A DNA stretch of 64,000 nt from Mobula hypostoma (taxonomy: Eukaryota), in NCBI RefSeq assembly GCF_963921235.1, contig NC_086097.1, forward strand, positions 96,970,001 to 97,034,000, read 5' to 3'. This document shows, in pieces, positions 2,471-62,790 of the stretch. Under the pieces are notes generated by a model. It was not told the origin of the DNA, ran no database searches, and worked only from the letters and a program-made list of their open reading frames with translations. A program made the translations under genes and the position numbers. Every line of letters begins with the position of its first letter. Positions within the stretch are counted from its first letter, which is position 1.

Positions 2471-2474
2471 GATC

Positions 2475-3250
2475 TCTGCTCCATGGTCTATTGCAGGGAG
2501 AGGTGTACCTGTGATGAAGCTGATTGAGTCTATAACTCTCTGCAGCCTCTTGAAATCCTGTGCATTAGAGACTCCATCCCAGGCTGTGATGCAACCAGTA
2601 TCAGCTCTCCACTGCACATTGATAGAAAATTCCATACCAAATCTCCTCAAACTCCTAAGAACATGGAACTGCTGGAGTGTCTTCTTCATGATTGCTTCAA
2701 AGTGTCGGGCCCAGGACAGATTCTCGGAGATGTTGAGACCCACGAACTTGAAGTTGTTCATCCTTTCCGTGAATGGTCCCTCAATAAGGACAAGTGTGTG
2801 TTCTCCTGACTTCTCCTTCCTGAAGTCCACAATCAATTCCTTGGTCTTGCTAACAGTGGGCGCAAGATTGTTGCAGTGACACTACTCAACCAGCTAATCT
2901 ATCTCACTCCTGTTCACCTCATCGCCATCTGCGATTTTATTAACAATAACGGTATCGTCAGCAGCTTTATGGATGGCATTGGAGCTATGCTTAGCCATGC
3001 AGTAATATGTGTAGAGAGCAGAGCAGTGGGCTAAGCACACATCCTTGAGGTGCGCCTGTGTTGAATGTCAGTGAGGAGGAGATGTTATCATTGATCTATA
3101 CTGACTGTGGTCCCCTGATGAGGAAGTTGAGGATCTCAGTTGCACAGGGAGGTACAGAGGCCCATGTTTAGAAGCGTGGTGATTAATAACGAGCTAGATT
3201 GGTGGTGTTAAATGTAGGCTGCAATCAATAAACAGCAGACTGACGTGTGT
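2475..3250 (-). mobile_element. degenerate Rex1/Babar-type LINE RT fragment
   Basis: MIVDFRK...FKFVGLNISENLSW...KKTLQQFHVLRSLRRFG, typical of the Rex1 RT C-terminal region. Confidence 0.8.
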
Positions 3251-3404
3251 TTGCGATGAGCATAGATGGCAATCTAATCTTCAATTATGAAGCCATTAGG
3301 AATCTCCATCAGATGAATCTACACACTTTGGATCTTGACATGGGCTTTTGATTCTGGATGAAATGCTTCATTGTCACGCTGTCTTCCTGGTTAGGATCCC
3401 ACCA

Positions 3405-3720
3405 TAGTCACAGTACGTAGCAGTTGGTGTACCTCTAACTGCCAGCAACCTGAGCTCTATTCCGATGCTATCTGTAAGGAGTTTGTCTGTTCTCTCTGTG
3501 ACTGCATTGACTTCCTTCCGGTGCTCCACACTCCTCCCACGTTCCAAAGATGTGCGTTAGTTTAGTGAGCAGTGGGCTTGGTGTGTTGGTGCTGGAAGCT
3601 GGATGACACTTGCAGTCTGCCCAGCACAATCCTCACTGACTTGATCTGACACAGAATGACGCACTTCACTGTACATTTCAATATCTTTATGTACACGTGA
3701 CATAAAGCTAATATTTCTTT
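3405..3720 (+). mobile_element. tRNA-derived V-SINE (HE1-like), degenerate
   Basis: V-domain-like stretch ctgtaaggagtttg...ttctc...ccggtgctcc...ctcccacgttccaaagatgt. Confidence 0.65.
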
Positions 3721-4279
3721 GAAAACCTGGTGCCAGCAGTCACTGCCAAGTCAGCCAGTGAGTACTGACAAGACCTCTGTTTGGGAAAGGTTTGGGCCTC
3801 TCACTAGGAGAGCCCAAGCAATTTACACCCTCAATAGCAAAGTGACCTCTCTAAATCTTACTTGGTAAATAGAACAACAAGTTGCTGCCATTCACCACAG
3901 AAACCTCAATGGTCTGTAAGTCCAACCATCCTACACCAATCAGTAAAGAGAGATATTCAGCTGGGCATTCCTGATTATGGTGTCGGTCGCTATAGTCAGT
4001 ATCCTTTTAATGTAGCCTCATCTTTGAGGTACCTTTTGAGAAAATATCTTTCAATTCATTACTTGCAAATCCACTATTGCAAAGCAATTCATTTTTGGAC
4101 ACATTGAGCTCGTCCAGAACTCACCTTCCCCTATTTCGACTTGCATCATCTTCCACATTCACCACTGTGACCATCCTCACAAAGTTACAGTTCTCTTGTC
4201 TGGCAACCTGCGATGTTTAACTTCTGTCCAATTCCTTCACGTACTCTCATCTGCCTACTGTCTAAACCCCTTTTACAAT

Positions 4280-4770
4280 CCTCCAGGATCTGTGTGTTCC
4301 AGTCATTCCATTCCAATCACCAACTTGCAGTATTTCACCAGCCCAGTCCACCAAGTAGACCTGCCTCTCCTCCAGTAACTCTGTCTGTACTTCCCACTGC
4401 CTCAGAAAGGAAGCCAACATTATCAAGGACCACTCCAGCCTGGTCATTCTCTTCTCCTCTCTCCCTTCAGAAAGAAGATACAAAAAACACTTAGAGGATG
4501 AACCACCAGACTCAAGCAGTTTCTACTTCACTCTTATCAGAAACTTGAATAGACCTCTCATACATTAAAAGTTGAATTCTTGATCTCCCAATCTACTTGG
4601 TTGTGGCCCTTGCACTCCCTGCACTGCACTTCTCTGTAACTGCAGCACTAGATTCTGCGTTCTTTTTACTGTCTCGATGTAATTATGAATGGTGTAATGT
4701 CTGAATGGCATGCAAATAAAAGGTTTTCACTGTATCTCAATACAGTATAAGTTACAAAAATAAACAACAT
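4280..4770 (+). mobile_element. Rex1-type LINE 3' end fragment
   Basis: Motif aggaagccaacattatcaaggacc...caccagactcaag followed by a 3' UTR ending ttttcactgtatct; similar to 43330-43910. Confidence 0.6.
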
Positions 4771-4869
4771 CAATACTATTGAGACCTGTGGCTTTTACTG
4801 GCAGTGCACTATGCTCTGGAGTTTCATTCTAGTATCTCACTGCCCACTCTACCTTTCTGTCCTTTAAAT

Positions 4870-5170
4870 ATACACAATGTGCTACAGGAGCTCAGCAGGT
4901 CAGGCAGCATCTATAGATGAGAATAATCAGTCAACGTTACAGGCTGAGACCCTTCAGAAGGACTGAAAAGGAAAGGAGAAGAACTCATAATGGTGGCGGG
5001 GGGGGGAGGAAGAAATACAAGGTGGCAGGTGATGGGTGAAACTGGGAGAGGGGCAGGCGGTAAAGAAAAAAGGTAGGAAGTTGATTAGTGCCTGACCTGC
5101 TGAGCTCCTCCTATACATTGTGTGCATTGCCCTAGATTTCTAGTACCTGTAGTACCTCTTGTATCTCCTT
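4870..5170. mobile_element. Penelope-like pLTR remnant with inverted terminal segment
   Basis: ggagctcagcaggtcaggca (about 4888) is inverted against tgcctgacctgctgagctcc (about 5089); degenerate hammerhead segment at about 4928-4965. Confidence 0.65.
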
Positions 5171-7662: not shown

Positions 7663-7968
7663 GCTGTGGCCAAGTGGTTAAGGTGTTTGTCTAGTGATTT
7701 GAAGGTCGCTAGCTCGAGCCTTGGCTGAGGCAACGTGTTGTGACCTTGAGCAAGGCACTTAACCACATTTGCTCTGCGATGACACTGGTGCCAAGCTGTG
7801 TGGGTGCTAATGCCCTTCCCTTGGACAACATTGGTGTTGTGGAGAGGGGAGACCTGCAGCGTGGGCAACTGCTGGTCTTCCATACAACCTTGCCCAGGCC
7901 TGCGCCCTGGAAACCTTCCAAGCTGCAAATCCATGGTCTCATGAGACTAATGGATGCCTATATATAAA
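7663..7968 (+). mobile_element. tRNA-derived CORE-type SINE with RTE-like tail, 8-bp TSD AATATTGT
   Basis: A box tggccaagtgg, B-like box gctcgagcc, CORE-like tgtgaccttgagcaaggcacttaacc; AATATTGT at 7655-7662 and 7969-7976. Confidence 0.8.
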
Positions 7969-17111: not shown

Positions 17112-19607
17112 TTGGTGGGAGTTGTGTACAGGCCACCTAACAGTAGTAGTGAGGTTGGGGATGGTATTAAACAGGAAATTAGAAATGTGTGCAATAAAGG
17201 AACAGCAGTTATGATGGGTGACTTCAATCTACATGTAGATTGGGTGAACCAAATTGGTAAAGGTGCTGAGGAAGAGGATTTCTTGGAATGTATGCGGGAT
17301 GGTTTTTTGAACCAACATGTCGAGGAACCAACCAGAGAGCAGGCCATTCTGGACTGCGTTTTGAGCAATGAGGAAGGGTTAATTAGCGATCTTGTCGTGA
17401 GAGGCCCCTTGGGTAAGAGTGACCATAATATGGTGGAATTCTTCATTAAGATGGAGAGTGACATAGTTAATTCAGAAACAAAGGTTCTGAACTTAAAGAG
17501 GGGTAACTTTGAAGGTATGAGACATGAATTAGCTAAGATAGACTGGCAAATGACACTTAAAGGATTGATGGTGGATATGCAATGGCAAGCATTTAAAGAT
17601 CGCATGGATGAACTACAGCAATTGTTCATCCCAGTTTGGCAAAAGAATAAATCAAGGAAGGTAGTGCACCCGTGGCTGACAAGAGAAATTAGGGATAGTA
17701 TCAATTCCAAAGAAGTAGCATACAAATTAGCCAGAGAAAGTGGCTCACCTGAGGACTGGGAGAAATTCAGAGTTCAGCAGAGGAGGACAAAGGGCTTAAT
17801 TAGGAAAGGGAAAAAAGATTATGAGAGAAAACTGGCAGGGAACATAAAAACGGACTGTAAAAACTTTTATAGATATGTAAAAAGGAAAAGACTGGTAAAG
17901 ACAAATGTAGGTCCCCTGCAGACAGAAACAGGTGAATTGATTATGGGGAGCAAGGACATGGCAGACCAATTGAATAATTACTTTGGTTCTGTCTTCACTA
18001 AGGAGGACATAAATAATCTTCCAGAAATAGTAGGGGACAGAGGGTCCAGTGAGATGGAGGAACTGAGCGAAATACATGTTAGTAGGGAAGTGGTGTTAGG
18101 TAAATTGAAGGGATTGAAGGCAGATAAATCCCCAGGGCCAGATGGTCTGCATCCCAGAGTGCTTAAGGAAGTAGCCCAAGAAATAGTGGATGCATTAGTG
18201 ATAATTTTTCAAAACTCGTTAGATTCTGGACTACTTCCTGAGGATTGGAGGGTGGCTAATGTAACCCCACTTTTTAAAAAAGGAGGGAGAGAGAAACCGG
18301 GGAATTATAGACCGGTTAGCCTAACGTCGGTGGTGGGGAAACTGCTGGAGTCAGTTATCAAAGATGTGATAACAGCACATTTGGAAAGCGGTGAAATCAT
18401 CGGACAAAGTCAGCATGGATTTGTGAAAGGAAAATCATGTCTGACGAATCTCATAGAATTTTTTGAGGATGTAACTAGTAGAGTGGATAGGGGAGAACCA
18501 GTGGATGTGGTATATTTGGATTTTCAAAAGGCTTTTGACAAGGTCCCACACAGGAGATTAGTGTGCAAACTTAATGCACACGGTATTGGGGGTAAGGTAT
18601 TGATGTGGATGGAGAATTGGTTAGCAGACAGGAAGCAAAGAGTGGGAATAAACGGGACCTTTTCAGAATGGCAGGCAGTGACTAGTGGGGTACCGCAAGG
18701 CTCAGTGCTGGGACCCCAGTTGTTTACAATATATATTAATGACTTGGATGAGGGAATTAAATGCAGCATCTCCAAGTTTGCGGATGACACGAAGCTGGGT
18801 GGCAGTGTTAGCTGTGAGGAGGATGCTAAGAGGATGCAGAGTGACTTGGATAGGTTGGGTGAGTGGGCAAATTCATGGCAGATGCAATTTAATGTGGATA
18901 AATGTGAAGTTATCCACTTTGGTGGCAAAAATAAGAAAACAGATTATTATCTGGATGGTGGCCGATTAAGAAAAGGGGAGGTGCAACGAGACCTGGGTGT
19001 CATTATACACCAGTCATTGAAAGTGGGCATGCAGGTACAGCAGGAGGTGAAAAAGGCGAATGGTATGCTGGCATTTATAGCGAGAGGATTCGAGTACAGG
19101 AGCAGGGAGGTACTACTGCAGTTGTACAAGGCCTTGGTGAGACCACACCTGGAGTATTATGTGCAGTTTTGGTCCCCTAATCTGAGGAAAGACATCCTTG
19201 CCATAGAGGGAGTACAAAGAAGGTTCACCAGATTGATTCCTGGGATGGCAGGACTTTCGTATGAAGAAAGACTGGATGAACTGGGCTTGTACTCGTTGGA
19301 ATTTAGAAGATTGAGGGGGGATCTGATTGAAACGTATAAGATCCTAAAGGGATTGGACAGGCTAGATGCAGGAAGATTGTTTCCAATGTTGGGGAAGTCC
19401 AGAACTAGGGGCCACAGTTTGAGGATAGAGGGGAAGCCTTTTAGGACCGAGATTAGGAAAAACTTCTTCACACAGAGAGTGGTGAATCTGTGGAATTCTC
19501 TGCCACAGGAAACAGTTGAGGCCAGTTCATTGGCTATGTTTAAGTGGGAGTTAGATATGGCCCTTGTGGCTACAGGGGTCAGGGGGTATGGAGGGGTGGG
19601 GTTCTGA
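17112..19607 (+). CDS. CR1 ORF2: partial APE endonuclease plus reverse transcriptase (831 aa, N-truncated)
   Basis: VYRPP, MGDFN, SDHN (APE); KSPGPDG, NYRPVSLTS, YLDFQKAFDKV, SGVPQGSVLGP, KFADDTK (RT). Confidence 0.93.
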   Translation: MVGVVYRPPNSSSEVGDGIKQEIRNVCNKGTAVMMGDFNLHVDWVNQIGKGAEEEDFLECMRDGFLNQHVEEPTREQAILDCVLSNEEGLISDLVVRGPLGKSDHNMVEFFIKMESDIVNSETKVLNLKRGNFEGMRHELAKIDWQMTLKGLMVDMQWQAFKDRMDELQQLFIPVWQKNKSRKVVHPWLTREIRDSINSKEVAYKLARESGSPEDWEKFRVQQRRTKGLIRKGKKDYERKLAGNIKTDCKNFYRYVKRKRLVKTNVGPLQTETGELIMGSKDMADQLNNYFGSVFTKEDINNLPEIVGDRGSSEMEELSEIHVSREVVLGKLKGLKADKSPGPDGLHPRVLKEVAQEIVDALVIIFQNSLDSGLLPEDWRVANVTPLFKKGGREKPGNYRPVSLTSVVGKLLESVIKDVITAHLESGEIIGQSQHGFVKGKSCLTNLIEFFEDVTSRVDRGEPVDVVYLDFQKAFDKVPHRRLVCKLNAHGIGGKVLMWMENWLADRKQRVGINGTFSEWQAVTSGVPQGSVLGPQLFTIYINDLDEGIKCSISKFADDTKLGGSVSCEEDAKRMQSDLDRLGEWANSWQMQFNVDKCEVIHFGGKNKKTDYYLDGGRLRKGEVQRDLGVIIHQSLKVGMQVQQEVKKANGMLAFIARGFEYRSREVLLQLYKALVRPHLEYYVQFWSPNLRKDILAIEGVQRRFTRLIPGMAGLSYEERLDELGLYSLEFRRLRGDLIETYKILKGLDRLDAGRLFPMLGKSRTRGHSLRIEGKPFRTEIRKNFFTQRVVNLWNSLPQETVEASSLAMFKWELDMALVATGVRGYGGVGF

Positions 19608-22679: not shown

Positions 22680-29775
<7,096 letters not shown>

Positions 29776-32560: not shown

Positions 32561-33779
32561 CCCAGTTCTCAATGCTGGAATCTCCAACCAGAATATCCAC
32601 TCCATCATTACCTACCCCTTTAAGCACTGCCAGAATCTTCTAGTTAACTTCCAGTGAGTGTAAATACAGTCTATTCATTTAACATAGCATAGCATTATAT
32701 CCCCCAACCCAGCCATCAGGGTAGCAAATTAGGCAAATCAGTGACTCTCTACTTCTCCATCTGGTAAGCCAACTCATAGCTGTGTTCCATGTATGACTTC
32801 AACAAAGCTCCGTACAATCAAAGTAAAATATATTTGTACTCTAGTCTCTTTGCCATCATACGATTTTTTTTTCTCTATCACTACGTTACAGCTTTCAATC
32901 TCCAGCGGTCAAAGTCGCACATGTTCCCCACCATTTACTAATTTTTCTACAGTAATATAAACTTCATTCCTTTAATAAAAGGAAGTTACTTCACATTTCT
33001 GCCCTTTATGTCCACATCTGCCAATGACTTGCTGACTCATATTATCAGTCCATATCCTTTCCCATTTAGTAGGCATTAGCAGCAAATGTGAGTGCCTTAT
33101 ACTTGGTCTCTTCATCTAACTCATTAATATGAATCATAAATAACTGAGACCTTCTGATCCAGTAGTAGACTGCCAACTTGAAAATTATCATTTCACCCCT
33201 CCTCGGTTTTCTTTCATTAAGCAATCATCTATTCATTTCCAAATAATGTATTTCTTCTGACTTTATGAGACCTTATACTGTGCAACAATTTTTCAAGTGG
33301 TGCCTTATCTGATGATTTTAAACAATCTAATTACACATCAACCACTGACTTTGTCATGTACCGTGGTTATTACCTCTTGTATCTCATTAAAAGACAAGAG
33401 TCTGACGGGTTTTGACAGGATGGAATATTTCATTTTCTGAGTTATATTAACTCTGTCCAACCATAGCATAATTTCTGAAAAGTGCTCTGTAACCACTTCC
33501 GAAATACTGGATTCTTGTGAACTAATGCTAGCTTGACTGTCTGTAATGTTCCACTTACCTTCTTCCTTTTAAGATACCATTAGGTAAACTTTCCACAACA
33601 TAATTTATAAAGTATCTATCTGGTATATCCTGCTGGGACTGACTTCCTCTGCATGAAACATTCATCAGGTCTCTCCTGCTCAGTAGTTACAATCAATTGA
33701 GATTTCCAAAGTGTACATACTCAAAGATAGTCATAACAATTTGACCGGGCTTGCAAACTGAATGAACCTCTCCAAATTT

Positions 33780-34870
33780 AGCTCATTGTCACACACTGAG
33801 GTCGGAGGACTTCCCTTCCTCGCCATCAACGCTGCCATCAATCGCATCTCTTCCATTTCATGCATGTCTGCTCTTACCCCATCCTCCCACGACCCTACCA
33901 GAGATAGGGTTCCTCTTGTCCTCACCTACCACCCCACCAGCCTCCGTGTCCAGCACATAATTCTCCAAAACATCTGCCACCTCCAACTGGATCCCACCAC
34001 CAAACGCATCTTTCTCTCCCCCCCCCCCACCCCACTTTCTGCTTTCCGCAGGGCTCGTTCCCTACACGACTCCCTTGTCCATTCCTCCCTCCCCACTGAT
34101 CTCCCTTCTGGCACTTATCCTTGCAAACGGAACAAGTGCCACACCTGCCCCTACACTTCCCTCACTACCATTCAGGACTACAAACAGTCCTTCCAGGTGA
34201 GGTGACACTTCGCCTGTGAGTCTGTTGGGGTCACATACTGTGTCTGGTGCTCCTGGTGTGGCCTTCTGTATATCGGTGAGACCCAACGTAGATTGGGAAA
34301 CTGCTTTGCCGAGCATCTGCGTTCCATCTGCCAGGACAAGTGGGATAACTCAGTGGTCACCCAATTTAATTCCACTTCCCATTCCCATTCCGATATGTCC
34401 ATCCATGCCCTCCTTGCTGTTGTGATAAGGCCACACTTAGGTTGGAGGAACAACCCCTTTTATTTCGTTTGGGTAGCCTCCAACCTGATGGCATGAACAT
34501 CAATTTCCCAAACTTCTAGTAATGCCTCCCCCCATCCCCCTTCACCATTTCCTATTCCCTTCTCCCTCTCTCGTGTTACTGCCTTGCCCACCCATGCCTC
34601 TCTCTGGTGCTCCTCTCCCCCGTTTTTTAACTTCTATAGCCTTTTGTCTCTTTCACCAATCAACTTCCCAGCTCTTTGCTTCATTCCTCCCCCTCCAGGT
34701 TTCACCTACCGCCTTGTGTTTCTCTCTCCCCTCCCCTTGCCTTTCAAATCTACTCCTCAGCTTTTTTTCCCCAGTCCTGCTGAAGGGTTTCAGCCTGAAA
34801 CGTCGACTGTACTCTTTTGCATAGATGCTGCCTGGCCTGCTGAGTTCCTCCAGCATTTTGTGTGTGTTGG
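33780..34870 (+). mobile_element. Penelope-like element 3' part (GIY-YIG endonuclease plus pLTR)
   Basis: RVPLVLTYHP; CKRNKCHTC; GVTYCVWCSWCGLLYIGETQRRLG..FAEH (GIY-YIG); pLTR with hammerhead-like motif at 34772-34809. Confidence 0.9.
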
Positions 34871-35187
34871 TCAGTGGACCAGGTACTTTTAAAATTTCAC
34901 ATTTTTTTTTCAGTGCCTGAGATTAATTACCTGTTTAAGAGCACTGCTCTGACCTTTTGGCAATTACTTGAAATTTCCCTGAACTTGATTATCAGTGGTA
35001 TTTTGCTTCCTTACTTCATCCCAAATTCTTTACTAGCAACTGGATGACTGGAATGTGGAATTTTGCTTTGAGGCAGTTTTAACTGTCTTGCTTGCAAGCT
35101 ACATTAGCTCAACTGCTGGGAAAATGATTCAACACTCTTGACTATACAAAGGCAACATATCTGAAAGTGATCACCTTTAGTATCCCA

Positions 35188-35320
35188 AACAACAGGAATT
35201 CTGCAAGATGCTGGAAATTCAAGCAACATACATCAAAGTTGCTGGTGAACGCAGCAGGCCAAGCAGCATCTATAGGAAGAGGTGCAGTCGACGTTTCAGG
35301 CCGAGACCCTTCGTCAGGAC
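35188..35320 (-). mobile_element. 133-bp Penelope pLTR-derived mini-element with 13-bp TSD
   Basis: CTTTAGTATCCCA at 35175-35187 and 35321-35333; near-identical to 43937-44059. Confidence 0.85.
35285..35320 (-). ncRNA. minimal type I hammerhead ribozyme (Penelope-associated)
   Basis: Minus strand GTC-CTGACGA-AGGGTCTCGGCCT-GAAA-CGTC-GAC: intact CUGANGA/GAAA core, stem II, GUC cleavage triplet, stem I GUC/GAC, and palindromic ACGT in place of stem III. Confidence 0.7.
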
Positions 35321-35867
35321 CTTTAGTATCCCATTCTCTTTGTTTATACTCTGAGCAGAGTTTGGGTTGGACTTCAATTAGTAGCAAATTTTACTCTTCA
35401 AATCTCAAAATATCAAGGCCTATGGCAATTATTCTTCATATATGGAAACAGCAAATAGTCCAATACACATTGTTAGTATGCACCATTAGTAGTCTTGGAT
35501 ATATATCAGTATGCTCAAGGTAATAGTTACTTTTCCCCATGTAAAAATGTAATCTCTTTCAAATGCTAATTGTATTGATGCTGGCAAGAAGCAACAACTT
35601 GCATTTGCCTTTAAAGCAATATATACTCACAGATGTATAATTAAAAAAACGAAAGTTGTGAAGTAAGGAAATAGTGAAATGGTTAGGACCAGCTAAGTCA
35701 AAGTCACAACTCTAAAAATGGCTTTAAAATATTACAGGTAGATGAGAGGAAATAAATCTAATATCAATAAATAACTCAAATACTTAACAGCTTTCATAGC
35801 CTCAAGATGTCCCAAACCACTAGGTCTCAAAACATCACAAATGAAAAAAAACTGGAGATACTGGACA

Positions 35868-38800
35868 GCAACACACACAAAATGCTGGAGGAACTCAGCA
35901 GCCCAGGCAGCATCTATGGAAAAGAGTACAGTCGATATTTCGGGCTGAAACCCTTTGGCAGGACTGGAGAGAGAGAAAGGTTAGGAATAGGTTCCAAAGG
36001 CGAGGGGAGGGGAGAGAGAAACACCAGGTGACAGGTGAAACCTGAAAGGGGGGGGAGGGTTGAAGTAAAGAGCTGGGAAGTTGATAGGTGAAAGAGACAG
36101 AATGGGAGAGGAGCACCAGAGGAAGTTGATGAGGAGATGAGGTGAGAAAGAAAAGAGGGGATGGGAAAGGAGGGAGTGGGGGGGCATTACCGGAAGTTTG
36201 AGCAATCAATATTCATGGCATCAGGTTGGAGGTTACCCAAGCGGAATATAAGGTGTGGTTCCTCCAATCTAAGTGTGGCCTCATCTTGACACTGAAGGCG
36301 GCCATGGATAGATATACCTGAATAGGAATGGGAAGTGGAATTCAAATGGGTGGCCAGTGGGAAATCCAGCTTTTCCTGGTGGACAAAGTGTAGGTGCTCG
36401 GCGAAGCGATCTCTCAATCTACGTCCGGTCTCCCCGACACTCAAGAGGCCATACTGGGTGCACGAACGCAGTATATGACCCCCAACAGACTCACAGGTGA
36501 AGTGTTGCCTCACCTGGAAGGACTGTTTATGGTAGGGAGGGAGGAGGTGTAGGGGCCGGTGCAGCACTTGTTCCACTTGCAAGGATAAGTGCCAGGGGGG
36601 AGATCAGTGTGGAGGGACGAATGGGACAAGGGAGTCACATAGGAAGCAGCACCAATGCAGTCGTCAATGTAGCATAGGAAAAGTGCGGGATGGTCACCAG
36701 TGTAGGCTTGGAACATAGGCTGTTCCTTGTAGCCGACAAACAGGCAGGCATAGCTGGGGCCCTTTTTGTTTGAAGGAAATGGGAGGAGCCAAAGGTGAAA
36801 TTACTGAGAGTGACGACAAGTTCCAATAGATGAAGGAGAGAGGAAGTGGAGGGGAACTGGTTAGGTCTGGTGTCCAGAAAGAAAGTGAGAGCTTTGAGGC
36901 CTTCCTGTTGGAGGATGAGGGTGTATAGGGACTGGACATCCAAAGTAAAAATAAGATGATGGGGGCCAGGGAACCTGAAATCCTTGAAAAGAACAAGAGT
37001 GTGTGAGGTGTCACGGATGTAGGTAGGAAGGGACTGAAACAGGGGGAATAAAACAGAGTCGAGGTATGCAGATATGAGTTCAGTGGGGCAGGAACAAGCT
37101 GAAACTATGGGTCTACCTGGACAAGTGGGTTAGTGGATCTTGGGCAGGAGGTAGAAACAGGAGGTGCAGGGTGCAGGAACTATGAGATTGGTGGCAGTGG
37201 ATGGGAGATCCCCAGAGTCAATAAAGTTAGTGATGGTGTGGGAGACAGTGGCCTGATGTTCCTTAGTGGAATCTTGTTCGAGGGGTAGGTAAGAGGAGGT
37301 GCCTGAGAGTTGGTGCTGGGCCTCGGCAAGGTAGAGGTTGGTACACCAGACTACTACAGCACCTACCTTATCTGCGGGTTTGATGGTGAGGTTAGGATTA
37401 GTGCGGAGGGAATGGAGAGCTGAGCATTCAGAAGGAGTAAGGTTGGAGTAGGAGAGAGGAGTGTTGACGTCTTTACGGTTAATGTCCCGTTGGCAGTTGG
37501 CAATGAAAAGATCCAGAGCAGGCAGAAGACCAGGGCTGGGTGTCCAGGAAGAGGAGGTGGGTTGAAGACGGGAGAAGGGGTTATCAGTATGGGGTGGGGA
37601 GTCCTTGCCAAGGAAGTAAACTCTGAGACGGAGGCAGCAGAAGAAAAGCTCAGCGTCGTGGTGGGCGCGGAACTCACTGAGGCGTGGGTTCAGGGGGACA
37701 AAAGTGAGGCCTTTGCTGAGGACAGAATGTTCTGTCTCAGAGAGGGGAAGGTCAGTGGGAATGCTGAAGACCTGGCATGGATGACAGCTGGAATTGGAGG
37801 GGAAAGGGGATTGGTTGTGTCTGAGGGGAAGGGAGGTTTGGGGTGTTCAGGGATGGTAGGGTGAGAGGAAGGTGGAGTCTTCGAGGAGCCAGGAGCTGGA
37901 GTTAGGACCTGAGAGAGACGGGATTGCAGCGTGGCGGTGGGAGAAGGGGAGTCGGGGGTTCCAGAGGCAGTGTGTGAAGACCTGGCCTGGAGGTCAAGGC
38001 CAGAGCCGGAGGTGGAGTTGAAGGTGTCCGAGGTCATTGATGGCGGTGGAGTCAGGCTATGATTCTGCTCTGGATTGTTTGAGCCATTAAGGTCAGCAGC
38101 AGGGATCGCGGTCTGGAGATATTGAGGCCTGCCGGCATTGAAGACAGCAGGTTCGGTGGTCTGTAGACGGGCGATCTTCCGATCCTTTCAGAACATGAGA
38201 AAGTCAAAGAACCGGCGACTGAAAGCGTGGATCCCGCGGAGGATAAAGTCCATTACAGGCACCAGAGAGAGAATCCCAGAGTTGTGGAAGTGACTGTGAT
38301 AGGGACACCAGGTACCTCTTCAAGGTGCAAAACAAGGCCCAAACGCGGTGGGAGAAGCAGTCAATTGAATGTGAGTACCTGGGGTCCTCAGAGGATCCAA
38401 ATTGAGAAGCTCAAAAACGAATTTGGAAACCATGTTGTACAACCTGGTGGTGAAGACATGTTCCCAGAAAGAATACATGGCTGCGGTAGCAGGTCTGAGT
38501 AAAACAGTCAAAGTCTGTCCCGAGCCTTTGTTGCCCATCAGGCCGGTGCTTATGCCGGTTTCTGTGACGTGAAGCGATTGAGAGTACGAGACTCCCCCCC
38601 CCCCGCCCCCCCGGATAGGACACCAGTCTATCGTGAGGTTAATCCCTGGTATTTTTGCCGGTACCTATTTTCAGCTGGGTGGACTGGAGCATTGTGTGGT
38701 TAAGTGCCTTGCTCAAAGACGCAGCACGCTGTCTTAGCCAAGACTTGAACCCACGACCTTCAGATCATGAGCCCGATGCCCTAACCACTTGGCCACGCGC

Positions 38801-38998
38801 CACACAGGTCTGCGTAAGCATGTGGTCAAAGAGTCGGAGAGCACCAGGGGTCACAGAGGGCGAGCAGTGTGACAGGATTTCACTGAACTCCGGTTGACAG
38901 GAAGATTTAAACTTCTTCAGGGTAGGCACCCCTGGAAGAAACTTCGCAGTGCAGTGATCCAATTACAAACAAGAGAAATCTGCAGATGCTGGAAATCT
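35868..38998 (-). mobile_element. near-full-length degenerate Penelope-like element (RT plus GIY-YIG, pLTR at both ends)
   Basis: MDVQSLYT, YIDDCIG, LLSVGETGRRLRDRFAEH; full pLTR at about 35868-36190 and pLTR remnant at 38966-38998; SINE insertion at 38498-38804. Confidence 0.88.
38498..38804 (-). mobile_element. tRNA-derived CORE-type SINE inserted in the Penelope element
   Basis: A box tggccaagtgg, B box gggttcaagtc, CORE-like ttgagcaaggcacttaacc; CAGGTCTG TSD at 38490-38497 and 38805-38812. Confidence 0.8.
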
Positions 38999-39118
38999 TA
39001 AAATATTCTCTAGGAGAAGTTACTGTTGTGATGTAGGAAAGGCAGTTGTTAATTAGCTCAAAACAGCAGCCTCATCTGAAATACAGGACCTCAGACAGCG
39101 TTAAGGCCACTGGTCTTA

Positions 39119-39847
39119 AGGCTGACTTATACCTGTGCTTCAAATGTACGCCGTAGCCTCGTACCCTATGCTGTACTCTATGCAGAACCCTACGCTGTAG
39201 CCCAATGCGCACCTCTCCCAAAATGTTACTGCGCGTCGTGGTGACGCAGACCAAAACAACCGTGATTGGTCTGCTTGGTAGCATTGCATTTCCTCCTACG
39301 CTGCAATAGCTTCCCATTGGGTGACTGAAGGGCAGAGAAGGAACTCTGGCTGCAATGCTTTCCATAAAGCTTTACAGACCTCTGAAATTATGGAGGACCC
39401 TGTGCTTGACGCCAGTTTGTAGCTAGCAGCTACAGCCTGTTGACTTCCACCTGAAGCTAAAACTCGAATGGTGATTGCCAGTCTCTGAGTATACTCTGTG
39501 TACACTGATGCGAAATAAATGGTTGGAGACGATGAACCAAATCGTCAAATCTACCTGCTGACATCCGAAAATATTTGAAATGCATTTCCTTGTCCATGTC
39601 TGTCAATGGCCGGACAAGCACAGAAAATTCACCCTCCTTCAGTTTCAGTCGTCATTGTTTGAAGTTTGAGTTTCTTCGTGTTGAGTTTCAACGCAGTGGC
39701 ATAGAAACCCCACCACCAACTCACGTTTTGGCGGTGAATTGCAGAGCAACACAGACACACCAACACACAAGTATAAAAGCTCACAACGGCGTAGCCCACT
39801 TGCGTAGGCTATGGTGTAAGCTTGTACACACAAGTATAAATCAGCCT
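39119..39847 (-). mobile_element. PIF/Harbinger internally deleted DNA transposon
   Basis: TIRs aggctgacttatacctgtg / cacaagtataaatcagcct with TTA/TAA-type flank; transposase HTH fragment [42 protein letters not shown]. Confidence 0.85.
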
Positions 39848-41749
39848 CAAGACGTGATGGTCTTTTTGGTTCCCAAGGAGAGTTCTATCCACTGAGGCAT
39901 ACTTGTGCAAAGCCATGCTGAAACATGGGACCTATTTGATTTAAGGTGATGTATATTGTTTGTGGTGTAAATAGGAAGGGAAGCACTAAGGAGCTGATTG
40001 AGAGAAACAGAGACTTAGGAGGAGTAAGTTGTAAAACTCACAGCAAAGGACCATTCACCACAGCTATGGCACAGTGCTCACAGGCAGTTTAGAATTTAGA
40101 AATCAGTTATGTTGGACACTAGTTTGGCCTGGGCTAGAATGCTGTCTGTATTCAGTTTTGTTGCTGACCAGTATACTTTGTTGGCTTACCTACTATGAAA
40201 CAGAGGGAGGCTACTCAAACCATCAGTTTCCATGCCATCTCTCAGCAGAACAATCCCGTTTGCCCGCTTATTTCTCCATGATCTTGCAATTTTCTCACAA
40301 CTTCAACCTCGATTCTTCTCCTGCTGCTTGACTTTGCTGTGAGGTCATGTGGGGGAGCCAGTGTGGTTGTTGGACATGAGGGCAATTGGTGCACCTAGGG
40401 GCACACAGTACGAGGGGGAACATTCAAATGGCACACTGATAGCTCCAAGGTCTTCTTCAAACCTGGGTCACTGAAGCTGAGAGGCTAGTGTTCTGCTTTG
40501 CTAAAATAAACTTAGAGACATTTATCCAAAATGTTGCAGCAGGAAGCATTTATGAAAACGCTAGTGAGCAAATATGTGATTGTGCCATTCTGCCAAGGGG
40601 GGGTCACAAATAATGTCCTAAGTGACAAGCTAATGGCAACTGACCAAATACCCAAATCAAGGCCGAACAGGTGCTGGACATATTCATAGACATGAACCAT
40701 TTCTATTTTTGCCAGTGTTTGGGTGACCTCTTAACCATGGAAATATGTTGATTTATTTTCCTTTAGAAACATTTTGTTTTGATTCTGTGACTGGAACTAA
40801 AGCACAGTTTTTTTGATATGGTTATGAGCTGAAGTATTAGATTGTACCAAGATGTGACACTCCCATTCAATAATCTGCGGCACACTTTCTGGAGCTGGGG
40901 ATTTATGTTTAAGCTGAAATGCGAAGGCATCTGAAAGTCATTCAAGCAGGAGTACTGTTGCTTTTTCTTCACTGAAAACGTCAGTAGAATCACATAAATA
41001 GGTATCCCAGGCCATTAATGATTTTACCAATAATGTTGCTAATGAATGACAAGTACTGTAATACCAAATACAATACCTCAGCTCAGATGGTAAGACATGT
41101 ACAATGGAAAAGGATCGAGCATTCATACAAACCCATGCTGCATGCAGAATACTGTTCCTAGATCTGATTCACTTTTTGTTTGGACTGCTTTGTCCTTGTT
41201 AGGATGAGCCTAATGGTCTAATTCTGCTCCTATGTCTTATGGTTGTCCCAGACTAGAAAGCATAATACCCAGCAGAGCTTCAGAAAGTTTTCTATTGATA
41301 TTCAGTGCACAAAGTTTGATGCTTTGAGACTGATTTGCAAGTCAGAGCAGAACACTGTTCCCAAGGCCATTGTTATCATGAGACGGTCTGCAGTCTATGT
41401 GTTAATGGACCTCTGTACTGCCAAATTGTACACAACAATTGCTGAAACACAATGTAAAAAAAAAATTCCAATAGGAACACAAGTTTACCGCAAACCTTAC
41501 CTGGAGGTTCAAGGGCTGCTTCATTGTTAAAGGCCGGCCCTTACCTGCTGCTACTGGAGAGACCAAAATGTCCATGTTCTGTCAGGTCCTTTGTTAACTT
41601 CGCCATGTCCTGAATATCACAGCACAGTCATGCCCCCCACCACCATCATTTACCCTATACCATACAGTCCCCCTTCCCACTCACTGACATCAGCCCCAAT
41701 CCACCCACGAACACCCTCCCCTCGCCACCTCCCAACATTTACCTTTCCC

Positions 41750-42630
41750 ATACCCATTACTACCTCTCCAGCATTATTTTCCAGTGTTCCAGTATCCAGT
41801 CTCACCTCTCTTTTACTCTATATCTCTGAAAAAAAAAACTTTTGGTATCCTTTTTGATTTTATTGGCTGGTTTTCCTTCATATTTAATCTTTCTCTCCTT
41901 ATGGCATTTTTTTTTGTTGTCTTCTATTGGTTTTCAAAAGCTTCTCAAATCTGGTTCATTTCACAACACCCAGTCCAGGACTACAAGATCATCTATCTTA
42001 TTCCGTATATTGCGTGCATTCAAATATAATACCATCGGTCCTGTATTCATCATTCTTTTTAATTTTGCCCCAATGTTACACTGTATCTCATCCCACAGAC
42101 TGCAATTTTGCCCTATCATCTGCCTGCCCTTCCTCACAGTCTCACAACACACTGCATCTACTTGTATACCAACTACCCCATCCTCAGCCCCATCACTGGG
42201 GTTCCCATCCCCCTGACAATTTAGTCTAAACCCTCCCCAACAGCTCTAGAAAACCTGCCCATAAATACATTGGTCCCCCTCTGGTTCTGGTGTAACCTGT
42301 CCTTTTATACAGGTCATACCTTTTCCAGAACAGGTCCTAATGATCTGGATATCTGAAATCACCCTGTTCTTACCCTCACTAGTATGTGGCACAGACAACA
42401 ATCCAGAGATTACTACCCTGGAGGACCTGACTTACAGCTTTCTACCTAACTCCCTATATTCTCTCTTCAGGACCTCCACCCTTTTCCTACTTATGTTGTT
42501 GGTACCAATATTTTTCGACGACTTCTGGCTGCTCACACTCCCCCTTAGAATACTGTGGACCTGGTCCAAGACATCCCTGACCTTGGCATCTAAGAGGCAA
42601 AATATTATCCAGGTATCTTTTTCATTGTAA
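41750..42630 (-). mobile_element. old CR1 5' fragments (ORF1 and start of endonuclease)
   Basis: VLYLNARNIRNKIDDL endonuclease start; ORF1 esterase remnants. Confidence 0.7.
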
Positions 42631-43329
42631 AAGGTACTATAGACATATAATCAGAAAAAGTTCAAAAAGATAATGTGGGTTTCATATACACTGAGAGAGG
42701 AGACATTACTTTGAGGATTAAATAAATGGCCAAGAAAGAAATTGTGTTTTTGTTTCTACCTTTAGAGGAGAAAACACAAAAAAAGCCTCCTTGGAGACAG
42801 TGGAGGACAATATTTTTGGAGTCATAATTAAATGGTAGGGCAGAGGCAAGGTCCAAATGGCCTATCCCTACTTTTTTCCTCATCTTCTTATGTTCTTATA
42901 CTCCATGCAAAGGGCAATATGAACAGAAGAATTGTCTTCTGTGATGAGCACTGGTCTGAAACAGTAAGTTCTCCCAGCTGACTCATGTATTGTTAAACTC
43001 AGTCAGGAACAATCAGAGAAACATTACAAACCATAACACCTACTCAAAAGCACAGGGGAGAACATTTTCTCCAATTGCTGTCATACACATAGGTTTCCTG
43101 ATAGGTTTGTTCCAATTCTATTGCAGACTATCAATATGATGAATAGAACAGAATATATACTGCACAATCCAATAAAGATTATAGTTGTTCCTGAAGGCTA
43201 GGAAAATGGTTCAGTGCCAGGTTAATTTTTAACCCTAGTGCACATACAAAGATGCAAGGGGAGATATTCACAATCCACACTTTACATAGACATTTGCCTA
43301 CAAGCAATCTGCTCTTTGGTAGCTCATCA

Positions 43330-43912
43330 CACAAATCATTGTGTGCCATATACAGTTTGCTTATGCTGCATTAATGCAAAGAAACATTCTCTGTGTAGGT
43401 ACAACAGAAAGCATTCTCTCTGGATGCATAATAAGGCAACTGCTCTGCATGTGACCACAAAAAACTGCAGTGTTGTGGACATCATGGAAGACATCTTCTC
43501 CTCTACGGACTCTGACTTTACTTCTTTCTGCCTCAGAAAAGCAGTCAACATAATTAAAGACCCTACCCACCCGACCATCTCTTTCCGCCTTTTCCATTGG
43601 GCAGAAGATACAAAATCCTAAAGGCAATTACCACCAGGCTCAAGAAAAATTTCTGCCACAGAGTTATATGACTACTAAATGGTAGTGCAATAATTTGGAT
43701 TCTTGACCTCACAATCTGCAGTACCTTCTCATGAATTTGAACTTTATTGTTTACCTACATTACACTTTCTCGTCGCTGTTTCACTTTATTCTGCATTCTG
43801 ATATTGTTTTATCTTGTCCTCCCTCAGCACCTTGTGTAGTAATCTGATCTGTATGAACCAAATGTAAGACAAGTTTTCCACTGTATCCCCACAAATGACA
43901 ATAATAAACCAA
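43330..43912 (+). mobile_element. Rex1-type LINE 3' fragment
   Basis: CLRKAVNIIKDPTHP motif plus 3' UTR ending acaataataaac. Confidence 0.7.
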
Positions 43913-43936
43913 TAACTAACCTATAACCGATACCTG

Positions 43937-44059
43937 AGTCCTGACGAAGGGTCTCGGCCCGAAACATCGACTGTCCCTCTTCCTAGAGATGCTACCTGGC
44001 CTGCTGCGTTCACCAGCAACTTTGATGTGTGTTGCTTGAAATTCCAGCATCTTGTGTTT
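43937..44059 (+). mobile_element. second copy of the hammerhead-headed Penelope mini-element
   Basis: AGTC-CTGACGA-AGGGTCTCGGCCC-GAAA-CATC-GACT followed by the same body as 35188-35320. Confidence 0.8.
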
Positions 44060-44355
44060 ACCTAATCTAATGCCTACCCTGCTATAGACTGACAGGACGG
44101 TTCCCTAACCTAACCCCTCTCTACTGCCAGAATTGGACAGGCCCATGCTCCATCTTTGCTCTTCCTCTGATTGCCTGAAATGGCAATAATTAATTATTCG
44201 GCTTTGGGAGAAAATGCCAAGGCAGGTTTCCAACACACGCCTTGTGTTAGGCCGAATCCCATCAAGAGTGTAGAATGAATGAGGAGGAATATTCACCTGG
44301 CTGAGGGGAGGAGGAATGGGAGGGTGATGGTAGAACATAGAACATAGGGATAGGG

Positions 44356-45377
44356 CAGGGGTGGCCAACCTTTTACATTCCATGCTTCAACTTTTTCACG
44401 TCGGAGTTCAAATGCGCCCTACAACTCTTGTAATCCCATTCAATTCTTGTAAAAATGTTAATATAGATATATTTAGCATTTTCACGATTTACTGATTTAA
44501 TATAAAAACAAGATAAACACTACTGACCTTAACAAATAGGTTTAACAAATATATTTTGTCTTCTTTTGATTTCTTCCTTTTTCTTAATCACATATTCTTT
44601 CTGTAACTCAGACCCAAGCACTAGCTTCAGTTCTCCTTCTATTTCAGTCTGATGTTGTGTTTTATAGTGTCTATTAAGATCCTGTCTTCTATTATGTGAG
44701 AAAGTGTTTTCACAAACAATGCACAACGGTTTTCCTGACGGACCGGCTATAAATAGAACTCGTTTCCCACTGTTCATTGAATTCACGCTTACTATCATTT
44801 TCTGCTTTTCCTTTGCACTGTGATGGGTAACTGAATGTAAAAACAAAGCTTAATTTTCGAAAAAGTACAAAACTGCAAATGTTCACAAAGGACGAACAAA
44901 GCACAACTCCGTAGTGCACGAGTGTCAGTTGTAACTGACTGGCAAAAACCTGTGACGCACCACTGGTGCAGATGCCTGGGGCCTCAGGATCAAACAAGTA
45001 TCAAACGTGTATTGAACAGTTGTGTAACGACCGCAGAACAAAAGTCCTTCTTTCCTAGTTTGACTCATTGAACATTTTTTAAAAATTGAAAACAGATTAA
45101 TGTGAAAGAAGATAACATTCGCCAAAAGATGTGCACGAAATAATAAAATCACTAAAAATAATTGCCAAGTTTTAGATTTATTCTCAGTAAAACCCATTTC
45201 TAGCTCTAAGCTACTTGAATTCCTGTTATAGATTTTTTTTCTACAAATCAGTTTTTGGTTAATACTTTTTGCATGAATGGGTTTACTTTTTTATTATTAT
45301 CACTGGGGTGCAACGTGCCACATCTAATCATCCAATGCGCCACTTTTACCGCATGCGCTGTAGGTTGGCCATCCCTG
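44356..45377 (-). mobile_element. hAT (Charlie/SPIN/GTF2IRD2-like) internally deleted transposon
   Basis: TIRs caggggtggccaacct / aggttggccatccctg; frameshifted N-terminal zinc finger KREFNEQWE...KPLCIVCENTFSHNRRQDLNRHYKTQH; no clear 8-bp TSD. Confidence 0.85.
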
Positions 45378-50006: not shown

Positions 50007-50165
50007 AAACAAGAGAAAATCTGCAGGTGCTGAAAATTCAAGCCACACACCCAAAATGCAGCATTTCCTGATGAAGGGTCTCAGCCCAAACTGTCCACCA
50101 TTTACTCTTTTCCATAGATGCACCCTGGCCTGCTGAGTTCCTCCAGCATTTTGTGTGTGTTGCTC
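50007..50165. mobile_element. Penelope pLTR with inverted head and decayed hammerhead
   Basis: Inverted aaacaagagaaaatctgcag...acac head, then CTGATGA-AGGGTCTCAGCCC-AAAC (G of GAAA lost). Confidence 0.7.
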
Positions 50166-59254: not shown

Positions 59255-60400
59255 TGGAGTCTTCATGAATCTATGGCTACCCCACAGGTTTGGAGAAAGT
59301 GGGAGGAGCCGAAGGAAAATATTATTGAGGATGAGGGCCGGTCCTGCCAGACAGAGGAGGTGGTGGTGGAGGGGGATTGGTTGGTTCTGTCAAGAAAGAG
59401 GCGGAGGGCTTTGAGGCCTGGTGGAGGATAGAGTGTATAGGGACTGAGCGTCCATGGTGAGGACGAGGCAGTCAGGGCAAGGGAATGAAATGTTACTGAA
59501 GAGACAGAGGGCATGAGAAGTGTCACAGATGTAGGTGGGAATGGGCTGAACCATGGGGTATGGAATAGAGTCAAGATACGAGGACACGAGCTCAGTAGGG
59601 CAGGAAAAGACAAAGACAATAGGCCGACCCGAATAGTCGGTTTGTGTATCTTGGGTAGGAGGTGGAAGCGAGCAGTACAGGTTAAGGGTACTGTGAGTTT
59701 GGTGGCAGTAGTTGGGAGTTCTTCAGAGTGGATGAAGTCAGTGATGATGTCGGAGACAGTCTTCTGATGGTGGGGTGTGGAATCGTCCTCGAGGGGTAGG
59801 TATGAGAAGATGTCTAAGAGTTGCCACTTGGCCTCAGCAAGGTAGAGGTCACAACAGCACCCCTTCATCTGCAGGTATAATGGTAAGGTTGAGATTGCTG
59901 TGGAGAGCAGTGTGTTCAGAAGGGGTAAGGTTGGAGGAGGAAAGAGGAGTGTTGAAATCAAGACAGTTGATGTCTCATCAGCAGTTAGAGATGAAAAGAT
60001 TCAGAGCAGGGTGTCCAAGTAGAGGAGGAGGGTTGGAAAAGGGAGAAGGGTTCATTAGCTTGGGATATGGAATTCTTGTCAGAAGGGGGGAAAGAGCTGA
60101 TGGTGTCAGAGGAGAGAGGAGATTTGGGGTGTTCAGGGAAGGTGGGGAGGGAGGAACATGGAGGCTCTGAGGACTCAAGAGCTGATGGTCAGGCCTGAGA
60201 GACATGGGATTTCAGAGTGGTGGTGGAGGAAGGGGAGACTGGGGGTCCAATGGCACTGTGTAAAGTCTAGGCTTGGAGGTGCTGGCAGAGAAGGCCCAGG
60301 CTGGAGCTAGAGCTAGAGGTCACTCAATTAGCAGATTTAAGGTGCTGAAGGTCATAGGAACCACCATTGATGGTGATGGGATCCAGATTCTCCTTACAAA
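59255..60400 (-). mobile_element. Penelope-like RT N-terminal fragment
   Basis: TARFHLLPKIHKP and TMDAQSLYT; collinear with 36800-38050. Confidence 0.85.
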
Positions 60401-62474: not shown

Positions 62475-62790
62475 TGTGCCAAGCAGCATCCGTGGGAGTA
62501 AAGGAATTGTTGATATTTCGGGTTGGGAACCTGCATCAGCACTGACAGGGGAGGAAGGTTGCTGGTATAAAGAGCGGAGGGTGAGGGTAAAGAATACTGG
62601 GCAAATGGAGCCAGGTCTGCGAGGGGGAGAGTGAAGATGGGGGCAGCCACGAGTATGAAAAGTGGGAACACAAAGCATCTATGAGTGGTGCAATATGATA
62701 AGTAAGGAAATGAACTATTAAGGAAGAGATGTAGGACGGATGAAACCAGATGAGGCAGGGGATCTGTCAAAATGTGTGGATAGTAGGAAT
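62475..62790 (-). mobile_element. old Penelope pLTR fragment
   Basis: gcagcatc...tgttgatatttcggg...catcagcactg (decayed hammerhead) followed by a purine-rich tract. Confidence 0.55.

What the first reader, a model, noticed from the sequence alone, without database searches (positions are those of the whole stretch)
35175..35333. A 133-bp TSD-flanked mini-retroelement that begins exactly at an intact hammerhead ribozyme
Seen: on the minus strand the insert reads GTC CTGACGA AGGGTCTCGGCCT GAAA CGTC GAC... and is bounded by a perfect 13-bp duplication (CTTTAGTATCCCA). A near-identical copy at 43937-44059 starts at essentially the same ribozyme position and ends at the same TGTTT. Known: Penelope-like pLTRs carry minimal type I hammerheads that lack helix III and are thought to act as dimers through a palindrome (ACGT here). 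Inference: shared boundaries in two copies plus a clean TSD suggest a discrete, recently mobile, non-coding ribozyme-bearing element (retrozyme- or SINE-like) mobilised by Penelope RT, rather than random truncation.
Basis: partly seen in the sequence, partly recalled or inferred. Interest (0 to 1): 0.7.

Follow-up and report, generated by a model that had tools for sequence, protein, structure and literature searches.

The report
Truncated Penelope end carrying hammerhead ribozyme
This 133-base insertion in a ray genome is real and young, and it matches the tail end of a very abundant Penelope-like jumping gene, so it is most likely a cut-short copy rather than a separate ribozyme-driven mini-element; its start at the ribozyme's edge may mark a preferred stopping point of reverse transcription.

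Summary
Contigs of a second organism appear to carry the empty site. It is the 3' terminus (minimal type I hammerhead plus optional tail) of an RT + GIY-YIG Penelope-like element; longer ORF-bearing relatives lie 0.3 and 0.55 kb away (76-78% identical). It does not start at the cut site, which lies 31 nt inside, but within stem I, keeping at most 3 of 5 pairs. Of 15 ray proteins with this sequence exonized to that edge, 13 continue past it, including all 6 with this copy's variant. The shared 3' end is the family's ordinary RT-start signature; there is no tandem partner. So a discrete retrozyme or SINE is not supported. Three of 6 hammerhead-bearing copies in the window start within 4 nt of the same edge, a suggestive but unproven hotspot; a run-off ('strong-stop') cDNA is my favoured cause. 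Side finding: the antisense terminus is annotated as an in-frame 46-codon cassette exon in unrelated devil-ray genes. Interest 0.3.

The parts
35173..35187 (.).
35319..35333 (.). Target-site duplication, right copy; 35319-35320 also match the element's first two bases (2-nt microhomology)
35188..35320 (-). Copy A: 131-133 bp 5'-truncated terminus of a Penelope-like element
35318..35320 (-). Remnant of hammerhead stem I 5' strand (3 of 5 nt)
35311..35317 (-). Hammerhead core CUGAnGA
35298..35309 (-). Stem II (4 bp, closing pair G-U) with 4-nt loop, preceded by one unpaired A at 35310
35290..35297 (-). GAAA core plus CGUC; ACGT palindrome 35294-35291; predicted cleavage between 35290 and 35289
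   Evidence: topology as in PMC4209133
35285..35289 (-). Stem I 3' strand
35188..35223 (-). Optional ~36-nt tail beyond the inner 3' end at which copies C, D and E stop; carries one extra base at 35205 that about 84% of laid depth lacks
   Evidence: (tables 2, 4, 7)
43937..44059 (+). Copy B: same subfamily, 92% identical, starts at stem I, palindrome broken, tail 12 nt shorter
50066..50164 (+). Copy E: other subfamily, also starts in stem I, core broken; preceded by an inverted tail-bearing arm at about 50007-50061 (-)
33807..34869 (+). Copy C: longer 5'-truncated Penelope-like copy (linker + GIY-YIG remnants, 3' UTR, hammerhead, inner 3' end)
35867..38998 (-). Copy D: about 3.1-kb broken Penelope-like copy that starts in the tail, carries RT and GIY-YIG remnants and ends with hammerhead and inner 3' end

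Best explanation
The 131-133 bp insert matches the hammerhead-plus-tail terminus of an endonuclease-bearing Penelope-like retrotransposon and is most likely a dead-end, 5'-truncated product of that element's own target-primed reverse transcription. Inferred steps: the GIY-YIG nuclease made staggered nicks 13-15 nt apart; RT started internally at the outer of two fixed start sites (the tail end); it copied an uncleaved RNA straight through the ribozyme cut site; it stopped in the 5' strand of stem I; and the cDNA was joined through a 2-nt GT microhomology. The stop position is probably a preferred one. My favoured cause (about 0.4 by itself) is run-off at a boundary of the template RNA at the ribozyme's 5' edge, most simply the transcript's 5' end. 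The unit probably cannot re-mobilise itself: in the one element tested in vitro the RNA needed for insertion extends about 55-60 nt beyond the RT start sites, and this copy ends at its start site.
For: Shown: duplication and boundaries. Hammerhead-to-inner-end region 76-78% identical to the 3' ends of copies C and D. C and D align to RT and GIY-YIG regions of full-length proteins. In D the tail runs on into element body, as in PMC11167929 and PMC3846280. Two fixed 3' ends about 36 nt apart: C, D and E end at the inner one, A and arm G at the outer one. Thousands of contigs have loose ends at 34865-34869 (1,616-4,513 per listed position in X1) whose consensus is the tail. The antisense translation of A is identical over 38 of 38 residues to a cassette in a Mobula protein. 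13 of the 15 proteins reaching A's 5' boundary continue with the same 5 residues, including 6 of 6 with A's IGRGA variant. Very abundant family: 261,758 and 202,356 contigs laid in two organisms (stretch included C and A). Empty site inferred in organism B: one 894-nt contig aligns 34848-35172, its depth 7.45 reappears at 35336-35400, and the length fits loss of 146 nt. 5' truncation, inverted arms and optional tails are standard for these elements (PMC8557442). Hammerhead mutants do not affect insertion in vitro (PMC11167929).
Against: No long ORF-bearing copy of A's own subfamily is in the window; the proteins show only about 15 nt of shared upstream sequence, and that set is biased because an exon probably needs a donor upstream. 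Two of 15 proteins diverge one residue past the edge. The 5' ends of A, B and E coincide within 4 nt, which pure random truncation does not predict (P 0.003 for a pre-set window, 0.19 for any window, 0.22 for E alone). A joint from the inner tail end to the hammerhead edge is seen in 22 (X1) and 14 (X4) contigs and could include tandem mini-units; the letters between were not shown. The joint row proving the empty site was not among the 15 displayed of 1,316. The run-off cause has no direct support: the Inr-like and acceptor-like words at the edge are expected from stem I pairing and a UTR that is about 80% pyrimidine.
Confidence: 0.82

Rival explanations
1. One reading: a discrete non-autonomous ribozyme-bearing element (SINE- or retrozyme-like monomer) with its own source copies, mobilised in trans by Penelope RT.
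For: A and B are the same subfamily and start within 1-3 nt of each other. Clean duplication. Penelope pLTR-derived retrozymes with solo monomers are described in vertebrates, including one chondrichthyan (bioRxiv 10.64898/2026.07.22.740005). Tail-to-edge joints in 22 and 14 contigs.
Against: A's exact variant continues upstream in 6 of 6 proteins. E, from another subfamily (72% identical to A), starts at the same edge, which points to a shared process and not shared descent. No tandem. Ends are not at the cut site. No tRNA gene in the window. A and B differ by 8%.
Confidence: 0.1
2. Plain random 5' truncation with no preferred stop; the coincidence of A, B and E is chance plus the reader's selection.
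For: Other 5' ends in the window are scattered (F, C, M upstream; K, L, F-arm, G, D-start downstream). Scan P about 0.19, and 0.22 once A and B are left out. This is a sub-case of the best explanation, differing only on the hotspot.
Against: 3 of 6 recognisable hammerhead-bearing copies start there. 5 of 12 displayed between-letter joints sit at 35317-35321, 4 of them with 1-4 letters between (table 5c; biased because the reference ends there). Two earlier unchecked AI notes report the same hotspot genome-wide.
Confidence: 0.25
3. The preferred stop reflects a 3' splice site or RNA structure and not a transcript 5' end: RT stalls at splicing factors bound to the pyrimidine tract and AG, or falls off on leaving stem I.
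For: In D. virilis Penelope the intron ends at the 5' end of helix I (PMC4209133). Long copies C, D, F, H and J all have a pyrimidine run plus CAG at this point. The depth ratio of the RNA-guess run to the DNA run is 0.006-0.013 in 6 of 7 bins over the 3' UTR, against 0.027-0.052 before it and 0.015-0.027 after it.
Against: A spliced template should add exon-1 bases 5' of the edge, yet the duplication abuts A directly. Similar pyrimidine+CAG words occur 3-4 times in each UTR. No GT..AG skip over the UTR was among the displayed joints. Contig depth is a poor measure of expression, the run is only guessed to be RNA, and one bin (0.057) breaks the pattern.
Confidence: 0.3
4. Ribozyme cleavage defined the template ends (true retrozyme-type processing).
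For: Core intact. 2 of 12 displayed joints begin at 35289, the first base after the cut (table 5c), so a minor cleavage-defined class may exist in the family.
Against: For this copy the cut site is 31 nt inside the insert and both sides are present in native order. The nearest same-strand hammerhead (D, 644 nt away) has a broken core. The predicted monomer fold pairs core bases GACG with CGUC, an inactive shape.
Confidence: 0.03

Closest known systems
5'-truncated EN+ Penelope-like element insertions with optional 30-40 bp tail (PMC8557442; PMC3846280; mechanism in PMC11167929, Poseidon of Anolis carolinensis)
   Same: Hammerhead in the terminal repeat, two 3' ends about 36 nt apart, tail continuing into element body, inverted 5' arms, short target duplication, microhomology at the 5' joint.
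   Different: Duplication 13-15 bp against 8-10 bp in the rotifer cases I read. The tail here is GT-rich on the ribozyme strand, whereas the Anolis start sites are described as an AC-rich stem-loop. Linker motif looks Neptune-like and not Poseidon-like (no tree made). A preferred 5' stop at stem I was not found in the papers searched.
Minimal type I hammerheads of Penelope-like elements (Cervera and De la Pena 2014, PMC4209133)
   Same: CUGAnGA/GAAA core, no helix III, palindromic ACGU, unpaired base before stem II, stem I of 4-5 bp, most motifs found as single copies attributed to truncated elements.
   Different: Stem II is 4 bp with a G-U closing pair in this copy; stem I is cut short by the insertion boundary; activity untested.
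Metazoan non-LTR retrozymes (PMC7229834; bioRxiv 10.64898/2026.07.22.740005)
   Same: Non-coding, type I hammerhead, related to Penelope terminal repeats, solo monomers exist.
   Different: Defined by tandem units each carrying a hammerhead, processed to linear and circular monomers. This copy is solo, carries the minimal motif, and is collinear with the parent element's end.

Membership tests
EN+ Penelope-like element, 5'-truncated copy | Sequence is the terminus of an element encoding RT and C-terminal GIY-YIG | tested here: met
   76-78% identity to the ends of C and D, which align to RT/GIY-YIG proteins
EN+ Penelope-like element, 5'-truncated copy | Same subfamily physically linked to an ORF | tested here: inconclusive
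   Only about 15 nt of shared upstream sequence shown, through 13 of 15 proteins; no genome held
EN+ Penelope-like element, 5'-truncated copy | Optional 30-40 bp tail at the 3' end | tested here: met
   About 36-nt extension beyond the end used by C, D and E
EN+ Penelope-like element, 5'-truncated copy | Target-site duplication with a single copy at the empty site | tested here: met
Neptune clade | [quoted passage not shown] | tested here: inconclusive
   Cys-rich linker word seen in C's frame 33762-34205; criterion from PMC8557442 passage; no tree built
Minimal type I hammerhead | Conserved core nucleotides and NUH triplet | tested here: met
   only A of 8 copies examined passes all three motif checks
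Minimal type I hammerhead | No helix III, palindrome at 15.1-16.1; unpaired base between 9 and 10.1 | tested here: met
Minimal type I hammerhead | Conserved G10.1-C11.1 pair | tested here: not met
   G-U in A (3 of 6 aligned copies G-C, 3 G-U)
Minimal type I hammerhead | Self-cleavage as a dimer | not testable with these tools
   needs in vitro assay
Rfam hammerhead families | Score at the curated threshold | tested here: not met
   0 matches in the window at gathering score; none of 4 weak hits at E<=10 is a hammerhead
Non-LTR retrozyme | Tandem units, each with a hammerhead | tested here: not met
   No such array in 33000-45000; all 6 motif copies in the window are dispersed
Non-LTR retrozyme | Cleavage-defined linear or circular monomer RNA | not testable with these tools
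   No raw RNA reads were offered; the ends of A are not at the cut site
SINE | Own head (tRNA-, 7SL- or 5S-derived, with internal promoter) not found in the partner element | tested here: not met
   The whole insert is collinear with the Penelope terminus; no tRNA or Rfam match
SINE | Fixed 5' end that is the true end of the family | tested here: not met
   Same variant continues upstream in 6 of 6 proteins

The most novel reading that the evidence does not exclude
Short hammerhead-plus-tail insertions are 'strong-stop' run-off cDNAs: RT starts internally at the tail of the first repeat and runs off the 5' end of the transcript, which lies at the 5' edge of ribozyme stem I. Each such insertion would be a genomic record of the element's RNA start, and full-length or partial-tandem copies would need a template jump from this intermediate, a route to the unexplained regeneration of pseudo-LTRs.
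Probability: 0.2. Interest if true: 0.62.

Novelty: new member of a known kind. Interest (0 to 1): 0.3.

Why it matters
As a single locus it is one of a very large number of truncated Penelope-like ends and is ordinary. It matters in two ways. First, if the preferred stop at stem I holds genome-wide, this high-copy family offers a way to test how Penelope RT terminates and how pseudo-LTRs and partial tandems form, for which PMC2377424 says there is no obvious mechanism other than a propensity to form tandems. Second, the same terminus, read antisense, is annotated as an in-frame cassette exon in many unrelated devil-ray genes, which would be an Alu-like source of new exons if RNA evidence confirms it.

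Tried and rejected
No whole genome is held, so the genome-wide endpoint table could not be made. Pattern scans for more copies: metagenome contigs 0 and 0, prokaryote genomes 0, viral contigs 0 and 1; that one matches only 26 nt and was dropped as probable chance. Rfam gave no hammerhead. The whole insert folds no better than shuffles (z -0.53). Pair counts on 6 copies show no change on both sides of any pair, so structure rests on motif match, not covariation. Pfam did not recognise the 5 broken Penelope frames given. Read laying (4 of 24 listed runs): the raw-read run X21 gave only 4 reads; the loose-end table showed 20 of 2,506 rows and none at 35320; some counts were skipped for volume, so it does not measure 5' endpoints. 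No RNA holder was on record; X10 is only guessed to be RNA. A search for short unspliced ORFs carrying the antisense peptide found no candidate. Look-alike earlier findings by place and by sequence: none. Lunse et al. on dimer cleavage was not held; I saw only a review's account. Rejected: leading GTC as cleavage site (topology); dimer with D's hammerhead (core broken); Inr or acceptor motif as evidence by itself (expected from composition and stem I).

Full report
Observation. The longest exact duplication is 15 bp, 35173-35187 and 35319-35333. Its two extra bases are also the first two bases of the element in the long copies, so the insert is 131-133 bp with a 2-nt microhomology at its 5' joint. 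A match of 13 bp or more that close to both ends has a chance of about 5e-6. The hammerhead is type I: stem I 5' strand, CUGACGA (35317-35311), one unpaired A, a 4-bp stem II, GAAA, CGUC, then the stem I 3' strand. The predicted cut lies between 35290 and 35289, 31 nt inside the insert; the leading GTC is a stem strand. Long copies C, D and F form five stem I pairs; A keeps three of its own and gains a G-U from the flank. Its stem II closes with G-U where PMC4209133 reports a highly conserved G-C. Rfam finds no hammerhead. Copy B (43937-44059) is 92.3% identical over 117 nt, has ACAT for ACGT, lacks 12 nt of tail and shows at most a 7-bp duplication with one mismatch.

What it belongs to. A profile search found 14 stretches at E below 0.005 among 19 reported in the window; 6 carry a recognisable hammerhead within 3 mismatches, against 0 in 100 shuffles. 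Two neighbours are long. C (33807-34869, +) and D (35867-38998, -) align by tblastn to the RT, linker and GIY-YIG regions of full-length proteins. D's frame finds 120 homologues, the best from Chiloscyllium (63%), Mobula (75% over 54% of the query) and Hypanus, many with RT and GIY-YIG domains. The host is therefore a cartilaginous fish, and later hits point to devil rays. A's first 99 nt are 76-78% identical to the 3' ends of C and D. D begins with the tail and the tail runs on into element body. This is the layout described for Penelope-like elements, where the optional 30-40 bp tail is the start of the next unit (PMC3846280; PMC8557442) and lies between two internal RT start sites (PMC11167929). 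C, D and E stop at the inner end; A and the inverted arm G stop about 36 nt further out.

Reads and contigs. I laid 4 of 24 listed runs on 34300-35400 at 80% likeness. 261,758 contigs of organism A and 202,356 of organism B were laid, so the family is very abundant; these are not copy numbers. Loose ends pile up at C's inner end (34865-34869) with a low-agreement consensus resembling the tail. In organism A a contig with no differences runs from the flank into the insert. In organism B one 894-nt contig aligns from 34848 to 35172 (5 substitutions, 1 gap), has 568 further letters, and its depth of 7.45 reappears over 35336-35400. If the 146 nt of insert plus one duplicate are absent, the contig would end 20 nt inside D's tail, as its other end lies 22 nt inside C's. 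I infer an empty site; the joint itself was not among the rows shown. The insertion is therefore younger than a flank divergence of under 2%, or was polymorphic in the ancestor. The tables could not give 5' endpoints: no row for 35320 was displayed.

Does the family stop where A stops? The antisense translation of A matches 16 RefSeq proteins of Mobula hypostoma and M. birostris at 88-100% identity. Fifteen reach A's 5' boundary; 13 of them (12 genes) continue with the same five residues, 2 diverge after one residue, and all 6 proteins with A's IGRGA variant continue. So copies of A's own subfamily extend at least about 15 nt upstream, and A's start is a break within a longer sequence. The set is biased, since an exon probably needs a donor in that upstream part, so it proves existence and not frequency, and it does not show linkage to an ORF. 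There is no tandem array around A or B and no tRNA-like head. In the Anolis element the minimal RNA for insertion needs the first 172 nt of the ORF while RT starts at 111-118; by analogy a copy ending at its RT start site lacks the binding region and is dead on arrival. That is inference from another clade.

Is the 5' stop special? A (0 to +2), B (-1 to 0) and E (+1, another subfamily) start in the 5' strand of stem I: 3 of 6 hammerhead-bearing copies. Five of 12 displayed between-letter joints sit at 35317-35321 and 2 of 12 at the base after the cut, but the reference ends at 35320, which biases this. Two earlier AI notes on this genome (e1-9958889, e1-9848786) report a genome-wide excess at this edge; they are unchecked leads, not support. 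I put a real hotspot at about 0.7. For its cause I favour run-off at an RNA boundary, most simply a transcript 5' end: it explains starts at -1 to +2 with no extra bases. A splice or structure cause is the rival. In D. virilis the intron ends at helix I, 121 nt after the start site (46-nt exon plus 75-nt intron), but a spliced template should add exon-1 bases, which A lacks. The edge reads as both an initiator (YYANWYY, consensus recalled) and an acceptor, yet neither is informative in an 80% pyrimidine UTR with stem I constraint. The RNA-guess to DNA depth ratio dips over the UTR, a weak hint that fits either.

Comparison and novelty. It works like, and I file it as, a 5'-truncated endonuclease-bearing Penelope-like insertion with a minimal hammerhead. 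PMC4209133 already attributes most single minimal motifs to truncated elements, and the 2026 preprint notes that most insertions carry a single terminal repeat. It fails the tandem test for non-LTR retrozymes and the head and fixed-end tests for SINEs. I found no paper describing a preferred 5' stop at stem I, a Mobula Penelope family, or exonization of this terminus in searches, which cover only the open-access library and were judged from listings.

Papers seen. PMC11167929: parts 1-2 of 4, plus a term search of 3 supplement files with no hits (its Fig. S2 on read ends was not seen). PMC4209133: parts 1-2 of 4. bioRxiv 10.64898/2026.07.22.740005: parts 1-3 of 5; its supplements, not seen, may list a chondrichthyan retrozyme related to this family. 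PMC8557442: passages and section 10. PMC2377424, PMC7229834, PMC3846280, PMC6765202: passages only. Lunse et al.: nothing seen directly.

Side finding. The antisense terminus appears as a 46-residue in-frame insert (32 residues with an inner acceptor) in unrelated genes such as SGT1, FRRS1, CRPPA, AADAC-like, GLYR1, SNTG2 and Tim8A. Of 7 clusters opened, cassette-free isoforms of the same species are listed for FRRS1, CRPPA and GLYR1; in GLYR1 the two flanks join with 0 residues between; the Hemitrygon and Hypanus SNTG2 proteins lack it. These are predicted isoforms and I saw no RNA evidence. Copy A itself would not form this exon: it stops before the shared end and carries an extra base.

Verdict. 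Real, young, ordinary in kind; new member of a known kind; interest 0.3. The strong-stop reading has probability about 0.2 and would deserve about 0.6.

Noticed in passing
Proteins P0121-P0136, matching window 35206-35319 (+): The antisense Penelope terminus is annotated as an in-frame cassette (46 or 32 residues) in 13 of 16 matching Mobula RefSeq proteins from 12 unrelated genes; a GLYR1 isoform skips it cleanly and stingray SNTG2 orthologues lack it. Looks like Alu-style mass exonization; predicted isoforms only.
   Followed up: partly
window 50007-50164: Head-to-head pair: an inverted tail-bearing arm joined through about 5 nt to a copy that starts in stem I. A second inverted pair is at 4867-5150.
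   Followed up: partly
window 35289 (table 5c): Two of 12 displayed joints in organism A contigs begin at the first base after the predicted cut, hinting at a minor class of cleavage-defined copies elsewhere in the genome.
   Followed up: no
window 34869 to 35320 (table 5): Joint from inner tail end to hammerhead edge in 22 (X1), 14 (X4) and 1 (X10) contigs; could be tandem mini-units or partial tandems; letters between not shown.
   Followed up: no
window 38695-38796 (-), similar at 7666-7767 (+): A roughly 100-nt repeat with a tRNA-like look (my reading; ARAGORN calls no tRNA) lies inside Penelope copy D, probably a SINE head.
   Followed up: no
window 17112-19607 (+): Open 831-aa frame with endonuclease and RT domains, a well-preserved LINE ORF2.
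   Followed up: no
window 22680-23114 (-): Frame with a lysine methyltransferase domain (PF10294), probably a host gene exon.
   Followed up: no
window 59272-60280 (-) and 62478-62560 (-): A third broken Penelope-like RT region, with a decayed hammerhead-bearing repeat about 2.2 kb upstream on the same strand that may be its 5' repeat.
   Followed up: no
window 34522-34780: Depth ratio of the RNA-guess run to the DNA run drops two- to threefold over the element's 3' UTR, starting near a GT-containing word at the ORF end; could be an intron or a gap between transcripts, or an assembly effect.
   Followed up: partly
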